From Octopus vulgaris (taxonomy: Eukaryota), in NCBI GenBank assembly GCA_951406725.2, contig OX597818.1, positions 103,788,001 through 103,852,000 on the forward strand: 64,000 bases of DNA, written 5' to 3'. The stretch's first letter is position 1. Each line of letters starts with the position of its first letter. The position numbers and the translations under genes were made by a program. The notes below the pieces were generated by a model. It saw nothing but the letters and a program-made list of their open reading frames with translations. It did no database searches and had not been told where the DNA came from. This document shows positions 5,940 to 56,191 of the stretch, in pieces.

Positions 5940-6630
5940 AATCTATCGACCCCGAAAGGTTAAACCGCAAAGTCACCCTCGGCGGAATTTGAACTCAGAA
6001 CGTAAAGAGAAACGAAATACGGGTAAGCATTTCGCCCAGCGTGCTAACGAATCTGCCAGCTCACCTCCTTTAAAGTAATATTTCCTACTTAAGGCACAAA
6101 GCAAGAAATTTTGGCGAATGAGGCCAGTCGATTACATCGACCCCAGTATGCAACTGATACGTAATTTATTGACCCCGAAATGATGAAAGAAATGTCGCTC
6201 TCAGCGGAATTTGAACTCAGAACGTAAAGACAGACGAAATACCTATTTTTTTACTACCCACAATGGGCTAAACATAGAGAGGCCACACAAAGACAGACAC
6301 ACGGATTAAGTCGATTATATCGAATCCAGTGCGTAACTGGTACTTATTTAATTGACCCCGAAAGGATGGAAGGCAAAGTCGACCTTGGCGGAATTTGAAC
6401 TCAGTACGTAAAGACAGACGAAATACCTATTTTTTTACTACCCACAAGAGGCTAAACACAGAGGGGACAAACAAGGACAGACAAACGGATTAAGTCGATT
6501 ACATCGACCCCAGTGCGTAGTTGGTACTTATTTAATCGACACCGAAAGGATGAAAGGCAAAGTCGACCTCGGCGGAATTTGAACTCAAAACGTAGCGGCA
6601 GACGAAATACCGCTAAGCATTTCGCCCGAA
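5940..6630 (-). mobile_element. SINE family B tandem cluster (about 4 partial units)
   Basis: Repeated GACCCCGAAAGGATGAAAGGCAAAGTCGACCTCGGCGGAATTTGAACTCAGAACGT blocks; B-box-like GAGTTCAAATTCC on the minus strand. Confidence 0.9.
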
Positions 6631-14580: not shown

Positions 14581-15214
14581 ATATTTCTTTACTACCCACA
14601 AGGGGCTAAACATAGAGGAGATAAACAAGGACAGACAAAGGGATTAAGTCGATTATATCGACCCCAGTGCGGAACTGGTACTTTATTTACCGACCCCGAA
14701 AGGATGAAAGGCAAAGTTGACCTCGGTGGAATTTGAACTCAGAACGTAACATCAGACGAAATACGGCTACGCATTTCGCCCGTCGTGCTAACGTTTCTCT
14801 CTTCTTTACTATCCACAAGGGGCTAAACACAGAGGTGGCAAACAAGGACAGACAAACGAATTAAGTCAATTATATCGACCCAAGTGCGTAACTGGCACTT
14901 ATTTAATCGACCTGGAAAGGATGAAAGGCAAAGTCGACCTCGGCCGAATTTGAACTCAGAATGTAGCAACAGACGAAATACCTATTTCTTTACTACCCAC
15001 AAGGGACTAAACACAGAAGAGTCAAACAATGACAGACAAACGGATTAAGTCGATTATATCGGCTTCAGTGCGTAACAGGTACTTATTTAATCGACCCCGA
15101 AAGGATGAAAGGCAAAGTCGACCTCGGCGGAATTTTAACTCAGAACGTAACATCAGACGAAATACGGCTACGCATTTCGCCCGACGTGTTAACGTTTCTG
15201 CCAGCTCGCCGCCT
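14581..15214 (-). mobile_element. SINE family B trimer
   Basis: Three head-to-tail units; complete head GGCGGCGAGCTGGCAGAAACGTTAAC at ~15212. Confidence 0.92.
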
Positions 15215-33287: not shown

Positions 33288-33332
<45 letters not shown>

Positions 33333-33335
<3 letters not shown>

Positions 33336-33750
33336 AGTTAAACGTTGGTGTTATTCAGATTCTTTTACTTCTAACAAATTTATCGAAGACATTAGTATTA
33401 TTCATTTCATCATTATACCCATCCATCACATTCTGTTAAAATGTCTTATTGATGACTTTTGTTTATTTATTTATTTCCCTGATGAGAATATTACATTGTT
33501 TTACACCAATATTACCAATTTTGTCTCCGAAACATGTGTCGGAAGTAGAAGAATTTGAATAACAACTGCGTTTAACTCCATTTATTTATTTATATGTATT
33601 ATACAAAAACGTTCACAGCAACCCGGAGTTTATACCTTTAAAAACAGGGTTTACGTCCTTATAACTTGTGTAATTTTTGCTGCCCTGGTAACTGTTTATC
33701 TATATTTCCGTGTTAATTGTAAACAAGGGAGAAATACATAAATCCATATA
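33333..33750 (+). mobile_element. Family G element with hammerhead and short inverted arm
   Basis: 33333-33373 is the reverse complement of ~33538-33580; homologous to 55740-56135; TA tracts on both sides. Confidence 0.75.
33473..33546 (+). ncRNA. Type I hammerhead ribozyme motif (stem II eroded)
   Basis: ATTTCC-CTGATGA-G...C-GAAA-CATGT-GTC-GGAAGT. Confidence 0.7.
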
Positions 33751-33774
33751 ACATCCATGTATATATATATATAT

Positions 33775-34192
33775 CATTATTGCCCATAGGAGGTTAAATA
33801 TAGAGATGACAAACAAGGACAGACAAAGGTATTAAAGTCGATTACATCGACCTAATGCGTAAATGGTACTTATTTTAATCATAATATGACATCGTAGGTG
33901 TAGGCTTCTATTCAACCTTTCTCATGGTATTACTTTTAAAAAGTATGAAAATATCATATAATCTACATTTATTGTAAATTTATAAGGTATATTATGATTT
34001 TTAACGTGCTATTTTATGTAGACTTGGGTGTAAATGTTCCCGTTCGAATCCCATTTTGTGAGGATTTCTTCACAGACACTTATAACACTATAAGTCGAAC
34101 TCGGCGGAATTTGAACTCAGAACGAAATGAAAGACGAAATACTGCTAACCATTTCGCCCGGCATGCTAACGTTTCTGCCAGCTCGGCGCCTT
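33775..34192 (-). mobile_element. SINE family B copy interrupted by a ~215-bp insertion (33881-34092)
   Basis: SINE tail half 33775-33880 and head half 34093-34192 flank sequence that is an inverted copy of 38526-38746. Confidence 0.85.
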
Positions 34193-53056: not shown

Positions 53057-53580
53057 TAAAAACGGTAAGATAAAAGAAAGAAAGAGACCTCAATATTATG
53101 TAAATAGAAGAATTTATCTGTAAATATAATATGTGAAAATTATTCTGTAGCCAAGATAAAACTGAGTTTTATCACACCACCATCTCATCGGATAAACGCT
53201 ATGAAAAAAGACCGTTATACAAAGGGAAATTACCGTGTTATAGACCGCTATTTATAGAAAAGCGCCATTCGAATGAAGATGTGTACGTTTTTCTAGTGAT
53301 GTACACGTACGCATGTGGGTGTGCGAGCGGATGAGTGTGCTTACGCGTATTCTATGAACTTTTTTACCGTATCTTAATTAGTGGTCATTCGAATAGCGCT
53401 TTTCTATAAATACTGATCTATAACACAGTAATTTCCCTTTGTATAACGGTCTTTTTTCATAGCGTTTTTCCGATGGCCGGATAACTGAAGAGATGGTGGT
53501 GTAAATTTCCACCTCGGCATCCGAAACTCAGAGTTTTATCTTGGCTACCGAATAATTGTCACATATTATATTTACAGATA
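53053..53580. mobile_element. Family H fold-back element between (TA)n tracts, with hammerhead in the right arm
   Basis: Inverted arms ~53115-53277 / 53385-53580. Confidence 0.85.
53479..53541 (+). ncRNA. Type I hammerhead ribozyme motif
   Basis: GATAA-CTGAAGA-GATG...CATC-C-GAAA-CTCAGA-GTT-TTATC; GUU triplet at 53533-53535. Confidence 0.72.
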
Positions 53581-55245: not shown

Positions 55246-55739
55246 GAATTGAGGTAATCAGATCAGATGGTTCATATTTGTAGATATTTATTTATATATT
55301 ACATTTTTTACATATATATCATATCATATCATTCGGATTTCGGATTAGCGCTTGCTCCCATATAATACTTACAAAGTAAAGAGAGAGCGAATAATATTTT
55401 TAAACACCAGTATAATGACGTAGTGTTCTATTATATACCTTACGTATTTGGCTTGGTTTATCATTGAAACGACTTGAACTGCAACTTAAACAAGGGTGAT
55501 TTGTAACGGCCTATCAACCAGGGCTCTAAGTGGTTCTGGGTTGAGCTATTTTTCATTATTTTTTCTAAAAATACTCTTGTAAACACGGTTATAGAGCGAG
55601 CATACAGATGTAAGCATTGGCAAAAACATACATTTAGTGTATATAAGTAGTCTCTATCATTATATATAATTTAAACTTTAATTTCCTTTATATTTAACAT
55701 TCACTATTAATATCCCTACTCTTTCTGTTAGCTACTTAT

Positions 55740-56131
55740 GACGTTATATCATAGAAGGTTTTTTTTAAACAATATTAATAGCGTTCTGTCAATCGCTATA
55801 CAAATCCATCATTTTTTGCTAAACTGTCTTATTGACGAGTGTCGTTTTTTTCACTTTCCTGAGGAGAAGATTGCATTGTTTATACCATTTATTCTTTTGA
55901 ATAGTATCAGTGGAATTTTCGAAACATGTGTCGAAAGTAAACATATTTGATTACACCTGCGTTAAACTCCATTTATTTATTCATATATTATTCAAAATAT
56001 TCAACGTATACACGAAGTTTCTACCTTTATAAACAAGGAGTTACAACACCTTTACTTGTGATATTTTTGCTGTCCTGGTAACTATTTATTTTTTTTTTCG
56101 TGTTAATTGTTAACAAAGTAAAAATACACTC

Positions 56132-56135
<4 letters not shown>
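55740..56135 (+). mobile_element. Family G element, second copy
   Basis: Collinear with 33400-33750 (GCGTTAAACTCCATTTATTTATT, TTTTTGCTGTCCTGGTAACT, CGTGTTAATTGT). Confidence 0.75.
55853..55938 (+). ncRNA. Type I hammerhead ribozyme motif, best preserved
   Basis: ACTTTC-CTGAGGA-GAAGATTGCATTG...CAGTGGAATTTTC-GAAA-CATGT-GTC-GAAAGT; 6-bp stem I, 12/13-bp stem II, GUC at 55930-55932. Confidence 0.82.

Positions 56136-56191
<56 letters not shown>

What the first reader, a model, noticed from the sequence alone, without database searches (positions are those of the whole stretch)
55853..55938. Family G: best candidate active hammerhead, with stem I covariation
Stem I is ACTTTC/GAAAGT here and ATTTCC/GGAAGT at 33473-33546 (a U-A to C-G compensatory change plus C-G to U-G). 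N7 varies (G vs U), and CGAAACATGTGTC is invariant although the flanks are clearly diverged. This is the pattern expected for selection on ribozyme structure.
Basis: partly seen in the sequence, partly recalled or inferred. Interest (0 to 1): 0.75.

Follow-up and report, generated by a model that had tools for sequence, protein, structure and literature searches.

The report
Penelope retrotransposon hammerhead, long stem II
This is a predicted self-cutting RNA motif (a hammerhead ribozyme) at the tail of a broken copy of a known kind of jumping gene that carries it in thousands of places in this genome; its fold was conserved in the parent elements but not in this copy, and a closely related offshoot kept multiplying after a change in the catalytic core that likely weakens cutting.

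Summary
55853-55938 is a type I hammerhead motif in the 3' pseudo-LTR of a 5'-truncated Penelope-like element (PLE; 55542 to about 56135). A pattern for the motif matches 4,098 places in this genome. Full-length relatives encode RT plus a C-terminal GIY-YIG nuclease with Hydra-clade motifs, but lack that clade's CxCX5C linker.

The 8-nt stem III palindrome stays paired, which points to dimer cleavage. Inserted copies decay neutrally (core 1.9% vs flank 1.8%), 33473 is a damaged old copy, and 'CGAAACATGTGTC' is not invariant. 'Best candidate active' is therefore unsupported for this locus.

The most interesting part lies outside the finding: a derived lineage with intact ORFs carries U4C (499 matches) and later core-adjacent changes, a natural test of whether cleavage matters for PLE spread. 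PLE hammerheads are published, and this scan noted long-stem-II Hydra-type hammerheads on other DNA before. Cleavage was not tested.

The parts
55542..56135 (+). 5'-truncated copy of a Penelope-like element (end of ORF plus 3' pseudo-LTR), subfamily S1
   Evidence: 92-93% identical to full-length copies L171/L172 from 55542 on; 94-97% to 39 other genomic copies
55543..55650 (+). Last 35 codons and stop of the RT/GIY-YIG ORF, including the CxH motif
   Evidence: same C-terminus as the 775-aa ORF of L171
55853..55858 (+). Hammerhead stem I, 5' strand (a distal U-rich extension lies at about 55846-55851)
55859..55865 (+). Core box CUGAGGA (C3-A9; N7 = G)
55866..55920 (+). Long interrupted stem II, 55 nt (7+5+4+5 bp)
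   Evidence: MFE -14.6 kcal/mol, z -4.15; 8 of 13 basal pairs change on both sides across subfamilies
55921..55932 (+). GAAAC, loop III AUGU, GUC; 8-nt quasi-palindrome ACAUGUGU; predicted cleavage 3' of C55932
   Evidence: cleavage site by hammerhead numbering, not tested
55933..55938 (+). Hammerhead stem I, 3' strand
56135..56187 (.). (TA)n microsatellite at the 3' junction (likely insertion target)
   Evidence: 28 of 30 related segments end in (TA)n, read by eye
33414..33760 (+). Older, more truncated copy of the same PLE family (S3-like), hammerhead at 33473-33546 with a 16-nt stem II deletion
   Evidence: 73% to the 55853 copy, 81-86% to its best genomic relatives
33309..33402 (-). Inverted partial copy attached to the 5' end of the 33414 copy (typical PLE insertion structure)
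   Evidence: 78% inverted match to 33508-33603

Best explanation
55853-55938 is a type I hammerhead motif in the 3' pseudo-LTR of a truncated copy of a Penelope-like retrotransposon; in full-length tandem source elements two such motifs likely pair through their palindromic stem III and would cut the read-through transcript after GUC, while this lone copy is likely an inert by-product. Shown: the motif, its place 280 nt behind the ORF stop, the RT/GIY-YIG ORF and direct and inverted repeats of relatives, covariation between subfamilies, neutral decay of inserted copies. Inferred: in pLTR-ORF-pLTR or head-to-tail arrays the motifs recur every 2.9-3.6 kb on one strand, 255 nt ahead of the start codon, and form a double hammerhead, probably slowly and perhaps with help from the element's protein; cleavage would trim the 5' end of the unit RNA or release unit-length RNA. 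Insertions run 50 or 200 nt past the cut site, so the template for reverse transcription is likely uncut or circular RNA. Purifying selection acted only on elements that went on to transpose, and it appears to have relaxed or shifted in the U4C offshoot.
For: Longer copies carry RT (DKT, FD, YRDD) and a C-terminal IYQC..FYIG nuclease with CxxC and CxH. L171 is pLTR-ORF-pLTR with 783-bp repeats 99.5% alike, motifs 2,863 nt apart, cut site 255 nt before the ATG. L184 is a head-to-tail array with motifs 3,625 nt apart. 19 subfamily representatives: 83.6% of cells paired, 14 of 34 pairs changed on both sides (shuffles 9.9, 3/500 as high), covariation score 0.229 vs at most 0.115 for slid controls. 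Stem III 8-mer paired in 19 of 19 (centre U-A 11, U-G 7, C-G 1). The dimer fold gains 10.8-15.1 kcal/mol over two monomers. Core vs flank substitutions in inserted copies: 8/416 vs 106/5791 (young set), 22/412 vs 372/6564 (old set). Literature: hammerheads are general in PLE pLTRs and work weakly, as dimers (PMC4209133); the Anolis PLE hammerhead cuts only with its protein and is not needed for insertion in vitro (PMC11167929).
Against: No cleavage data. The Rfam score is below the gathering threshold. The RNAalifold consensus is an alternative, non-catalytic pair of hairpins, and that fold is the MFE of the window copy with flanks. On the 43-row alignment the number of pairs with two-sided change did not exceed shuffles (8 vs 9.2). 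Rows are related along two ladders, so shuffle counts are not probabilities. No pile-up of insertion ends at the cut site. A lineage with U4C amplified to 499 matches. RT identity rests on motifs and on comparison by eye with printed Hydra alignments; Pfam gave no RT or GIY-YIG hit.
Confidence: 0.85

Rival explanations
1. This locus is itself an active, host-selected ribozyme.
For: All 14 core positions and stems are intact in this copy, and its active fold is only 2.2 kcal/mol above the MFE.
Against: 21 of 30 young copies are equally intact and core decay equals flank decay; the copy is 2.2% from its group majority, slightly more than the mean 1.5%; no intact same-strand partner in the window.
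Confidence: 0.05
2. The RNA is a two-state switch: an inactive fold (stem I 5' strand paired with stem II 5' strand, stem II 3' strand with stem I 3' strand) is itself selected and keeps cleavage off until the element's protein or a dimer partner refolds it.
For: RNAalifold picks this fold. Pair 2.5:10.4 is kept in 19 of 19 representatives (C-G 9, U-A 6, U-G 4), better than either canonical partner (17/19 and 14/19). In S10/S11, changes that break stem II pairs keep the alternative pairs.
Against: Largely a by-product of a U/C-rich strand beside GAA. Few independent events, all transitions at that pair. Pairs 2.6:10.5 and 2.7:10.6 hold in only 11/19 and 10/19, and C17A breaks the 3' hairpin in 5/19. 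Template-switch mutation perfects such hairpins without selection (own knowledge). A stem I/stem II tertiary contact would give the same signal.
Confidence: 0.2
3. The structure is kept mainly as a protein-binding or RT-positioning element, and catalysis is vestigial or dispensable.
For: The U4C lineage has 499 matches against 418 for U4-intact S1, includes the copies with intact ORFs, and then fixed C17A, C11.1U and loss of pair 2.6:1.6 while keeping stem II. Catalytic mutants did not affect insertion in the Anolis PLE (PMC11167929).
Against: The other 13 core positions stay invariant in 19 of 19 representatives apart from H17; the sister lineage (59% aa identity) keeps the whole core. U4C lowers but does not abolish activity in a viroid (PMC3088659, passage). 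GUA is a common cut site in Hydra-clade hammerheads.
Confidence: 0.25
4. It is a non-autonomous retrozyme (short tandem repeat giving circular RNA).
For: Type I hammerhead with palindromic loop III, as in amphibian retrozymes (PMC7229834).
Against: The motif is contiguous with a coding RT/EN ORF in every longer copy examined, 5' ends are scattered, and no short tandem unit exists at either window copy.
Confidence: 0.02

Closest known systems
Hydra clade of C-terminal EN+ PLEs and their hammerheads, e.g. Hydra-1_Obim (Craig et al. 2021, PMC8557442; sections 11 and 12, passages, and parts of the supplement read)
   Same: DKT, RW motif, C-terminal GIY-YIG with CxxC and CxH around the E and N residues, no CCHH, unit under 3 kb in the S1 lineage, (TA)n insertions, type I hammerhead with AC..GU palindromic stem III behind the ORF.
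   Different: No CxCX5C linker (replaced by a 54-165-aa Asn/Ser-rich stretch); RWL for RWK; stem II region 53-59 nt against about 25 nt at most in the 26 Hydra rows of File S2; a different family from Hydra-1_Obim (other hammerhead sequence); a U4C sub-lineage.
[quoted passage not shown]
   Same: Type I, in pLTRs, many truncated solo copies, opposite-strand pairs, palindromic 15.2-16.2 region, predicted dimer cleavage, families full of covariation.
   Different: Much longer stem II; no extra nucleotide between A9 and G10.1; 4-nt loop III kept.
Anolis PAc (Poseidon) PLE hammerhead (Frangieh et al. 2024, PMC11167929; passages read)
   Same: PLE pLTR hammerhead; insertions extend past the cut site; no ends at the cut site found.
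   Different: Other clade; there the ORF starts inside the ribozyme, here 255 nt downstream of the cut site.
Rfam RF00163 Hammerhead_1
   Same: Whole model matched (1-45/45), all core positions present.
   Different: 51-nt insertion in place of the 10-nt loop II; 25.7 bits, under the gathering score 34.

Membership tests
Type I hammerhead ribozyme | Core CUGANGA, GAAA, UH with C3-G8, G10.1-C11.1, A15.1-U16.1 | tested here: met
Type I hammerhead ribozyme | Stems I, II, III supported by covariation | tested here: met
   (14 of 34 pairs); weaker on pair counts
Type I hammerhead ribozyme | Loop 1/loop 2 tertiary contact | tested here: inconclusive
   candidate 2.5:10.4 pairing; cannot be told from an alternative hairpin
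Type I hammerhead ribozyme | Self-cleavage 3' of H17 | not testable with these tools
   no raw RNA reads available
Penelope-like elements (EN+) | Single ORF with RT and GIY-YIG endonuclease | tested here: met
   775-aa ORF with RT motifs and IYQC..FYIG; matched by eye to the printed Hydra alignment; Pfam silent
Penelope-like elements (EN+) | Pseudo-LTRs from partial tandem copies, 5' truncation, inverted 5' segments | tested here: met
Penelope-like elements (EN+) | RT phylogeny with PLEs and TERTs | not tested
   no reference PLE proteins were held as stored sequences
Hydra clade | C-terminal EN, DKT motif, no CCHH, CxxC and CxH flanking E and N | tested here: met
   SDKT in 4 of 4 ORFs checked; CLLC at 735 and CKH at 763 in L171
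Hydra clade | RWK motif | tested here: inconclusive
   RWL in all ORFs checked
Hydra clade | CxCX5C linker between RT and EN | tested here: not met
   absent in 5 of 5 ORFs checked; so filed as Hydra-like, not as a strict member
Hydra clade | Insertion into (TA)n | tested here: met
   28 of 30 3' junctions by eye
Naiad/Chlamys | N-terminal endonuclease | tested here: not met
   EN is C-terminal
Non-LTR retrozymes | Non-coding 150-450-bp tandem units each with a hammerhead | tested here: not met

The most novel reading that the evidence does not exclude
This Hydra-like PLE family records a ribozyme being switched off: a long-armed, two-state hammerhead kept under structural selection through a dozen successive subfamilies, then crippled by U4C and further changes in an offshoot that went on to make about 500 more copies with intact ORFs. 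That would be a natural knock-out showing that hammerhead cleavage is dispensable for PLE retrotransposition in an animal. The same family targets (TA)n without the zinc-finger linker proposed to do the targeting.
Probability: 0.25. Interest if true: 0.6.

Novelty: new variant of a known kind. Interest (0 to 1): 0.33.

Why it matters
The finding as stated is ordinary: PLE pseudo-LTR hammerheads are published and this locus is one of thousands of decaying copies. The family is still useful. What hammerheads do for PLEs is an open question (PMC8557442 and PMC11167929 say so), and here natural variants form a ladder from an intact core to U4C, C17A and C11.1U forms that can be assayed side by side. 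The long stem II explains why standard descriptors and the Rfam threshold miss such motifs. (TA)n insertion without the CxCX5C linker bears on the proposal that this linker directs microsatellite targeting.

Tried and rejected
Rfam on the whole window: the 150 rows shown of 252 were microsatellite-driven miRNA and snoRNA matches with no hammerhead; the local scan found it.

Pfam on ORF pieces and whole ORFs: no RT or GIY-YIG family. PDB sequence search: nothing below E 0.29. ESM Atlas: sequence not held.

Expression: no RNA holder listed on record; four runs guessed to be RNA were contigs only, covered the family but gave no ends, strand or level. This is no evidence either way.

Footprint of cleavage in insertion ends: 3 of 30 segments start at +1/+2 (two of them 119 bp apart), all with 3-4 nt of microhomology. 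Genome-wide, 4 matches for a +1 junction pattern vs 1 for a -2 control among about 469 copies, 3 of the 4 sharing one microhomology junction: no pile-up. None of 146 motif rows breaks off at C17 (by eye).

A first clustering on downstream flanks failed because many copies end about 50 nt after the motif; upstream flanks were used instead. Dating by divergence did not cleanly order S1 and late U4C: mean pairwise 6.8% vs 2.8%, but median nearest 1.3% vs 1.6%, n = 8 each.

A second U4C origin in the older S2/S3 background (24 matches against 307; control T-to-C 4 in 400 sites) is unresolved: the 8 copies inspected sit on different haplotypes, so a mutation hot spot at the C run is possible.

Naiad and selenoprotein readings were rejected (EN is C-terminal, ORFs have no in-frame TGA). 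Lunse et al. 2017 (PMC5785218) is not held and is known to me only through a review passage. Paper searches for 'hammerhead'+'octopus', 'hammerhead'+'U4C' and 'Penelope/hammerhead/CCGAUGA' listed nothing on this family or on a U4C PLE lineage; subscription journals and Repbase/Dfam were not searchable, so the family may already be catalogued.

Full report
Observation. The described bases are present at both places. A core-and-stems scan of the window gives three type I candidates: 33470-33549, 53479-53541 and 55853-55938. Rfam Hammerhead_1 matches 55853-55938 end to end at 25.7 bits, under the gathering score because stem II holds 55 nt. That stem II folds well by itself (z -4.15), whereas the whole motif does not beat shuffles (z -1.48). 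The predicted cut is 3' of C55932.

What it belongs to. The window lies in a 2.8-Gb animal genome. The 55853 copy has many 94-97% relatives (3,060 candidates, 40 scored), the 33473 copy only 81-86% relatives. A two-box pattern matches 4,098 places, the reversed control none. Copies share the 3' end, have scattered 5' ends and often an inverted 5' segment. [quoted passage not shown] Three natural copies hold an unbroken 775-aa ORF, one between 783-bp direct repeats 99.5% alike. The window copy keeps only the last 35 codons. By the criteria of Craig et al. 2021 (PMC8557442, section 11; supplement passages) it has the Hydra features DKT, no CCHH, CxxC/CxH and (TA)n insertion, but RWL for RWK and no CxCX5C linker in 5 of 5 ORFs checked. 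I therefore call it Hydra-like. No RT tree was built, and Pfam gave no domain hit.

Covariation. The stem I difference between the two window copies is fixed between subfamilies. Trees built on the upstream flank without the ribozyme (111 copies, FastTree; 71 rows, IQ-TREE; rows were those with enough homologous flank, out of 198 and 208 motif copies) give two ladders of subfamilies. With one representative per subfamily (19 rows), 83.6% of cells pair, 14 of 34 pairs change on both sides (5 in stem I, 8 in stem II, 1 in stem III), and slid controls reach at most half the covariation score. On a 43-row alignment the cell counts were also above shuffles but the number of covarying pairs was not. 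Rows are related, so these are not p-values. Pair 2.2:1.2 reads U-A in 16, C-G in 2 and unpaired in 1 representative, and on the ladder goes U-A, C-G, U-A. The stem III 8-mer stays self-complementary in 19 of 19 (AUAU, AUGU, ACGU loops), and a double-hammerhead dimer is 10.8-15.1 kcal/mol more stable than two monomers. This fits the dimer model for PLE hammerheads (PMC4209133; review passage PMC6765202).

Selection is not on the copies. In 30 young and 30 old copies chosen by overall similarity, core positions are hit as often as flanks (1.9% vs 1.8%; 5.3% vs 5.7%), and 21 of 30 and 13 of 30 keep all 14 core bases. The 33473 copy has lost 16 nt of stem II and cannot fold as a hammerhead cheaply. 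The 55853 copy is intact, but so are hundreds of others (418 exact matches to its 5' half), and it has no intact partner nearby. Activity of this locus is neither shown nor specially likely.

Likely working. In pLTR-ORF-pLTR and head-to-tail arrays the motif recurs 2,863 or 3,625 nt apart, 255 nt ahead of the ATG in L171. Inferred: two motifs pair through stem III and cut a read-through transcript. Insertions end at +47 to +63 (17 of 30) or about +200 (13 of 30) past the cut (the pattern lay downstream of the cut, so ends at C17 could not be seen there), none of 146 motif rows stops at C17, and 5' junctions do not pile up at +1. So the copied template is likely uncut or circular. This agrees with the Anolis PLE, where the hammerhead needs the protein and its mutants still insert in vitro (PMC11167929, passages).

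Two side results. (1) An alternative fold, in which each 5' strand pairs with the other 5' strand, is the RNAalifold consensus, and pair 2.5:10.4 holds in 19 of 19 representatives. Base composition explains much of this and independent events are few, so it is a lead only. (2) The ORF-intact relatives of the window's subfamily carry CCGAAGA, i.e. U4C (6 of 6 loci in which the motif was in range; 499 exact matches). They nest inside S1 with stepwise C17A, C11.1U and loss of pair 2.6:1.6 (supports 93/76, 97/90, 98/91, 97/86, 99/96; one U4C row falls in a noisy cluster, and rows with inverted flanks give long branches). U4C is reported to lower activity considerably in vitro while a viroid stays infectious (PMC3088659, passage). 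The sister lineage, 59% identical in protein, keeps the full core. Relative ages were not cleanly resolved.

Comparison and novelty. Hammerheads in PLE pseudo-LTRs, Hydra-clade ones included, are published. The 26 Hydra rows of File S2 have stem II regions of about 25 nt at most, against 53-59 nt here; a long stem II has a precedent in a spike-moss PLE in the same table. Earlier AI notes of this scan describe long-stem-II Hydra-type hammerheads in another genome and a CCGAUGA retrozyme elsewhere in this genome; I did not test those. Supplements of the bioRxiv preprint (10.64898/2026.07.22.740005, part 1 of 5 read) and of PMC4209133 were not seen and may list related motifs. Verdict: a real motif, a new structural variant of a known kind, ordinary at this locus; interest 0.33.

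Noticed in passing
L171:3530-3604, L162, L172-L174, L191-L210: Offshoot of the window's subfamily with U4C in the hammerhead core (499 exact matches), then C17A, C11.1U and loss of a stem I pair; includes copies with intact 775-aa ORFs.
   Followed up: partly
L171:996-3323, L175, L177, L178, L179: ORFs lack the Hydra CxCX5C linker (Asn/Ser-rich stretch of 54-165 aa instead), yet the family inserts into (TA)n.
   Followed up: partly
window 53479-53541 (+): A separate type I hammerhead candidate (6-bp stem I, 31-nt stem II region, palindromic ACUCAGAGU stem III) followed by (TA)n; probably another PLE family.
   Followed up: no
L184 (G000:C1:119516200-119526100): Head-to-tail array of near-identical 3,625-bp PLE units with 899-codon open frames and intact ACGU-loop hammerheads; many 899-codon copies genome-wide, so a young sister family.
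   Followed up: partly
L211-L240, relative to the cut site: Insertions end at two preferred places, about +52 and about +200, suggesting two RT start sites; recurrent very short insertions join an inverted 3' end to +1 through GAAA microhomology (L241, L242, L244).
   Followed up: partly
L246-L253: U4C also occurs in 24 copies of the older S2/S3 background, about 7 times the control T-to-C rate; minor source element or mutation hot spot, unresolved.
   Followed up: partly
L014:610-732, L018:3052-3158, L091:1916-2023, L094:2741-2842, L189:479-513: Hammerhead-like motifs of unrelated repeat families (loops AATT, GATC, CGAG, GATT) in fetched flanks.
   Followed up: no
window 6126-6611 and 14585-15165: Tandem 184/217-bp units of a common SINE-like repeat; the same repeat starts near 33780.
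   Followed up: no
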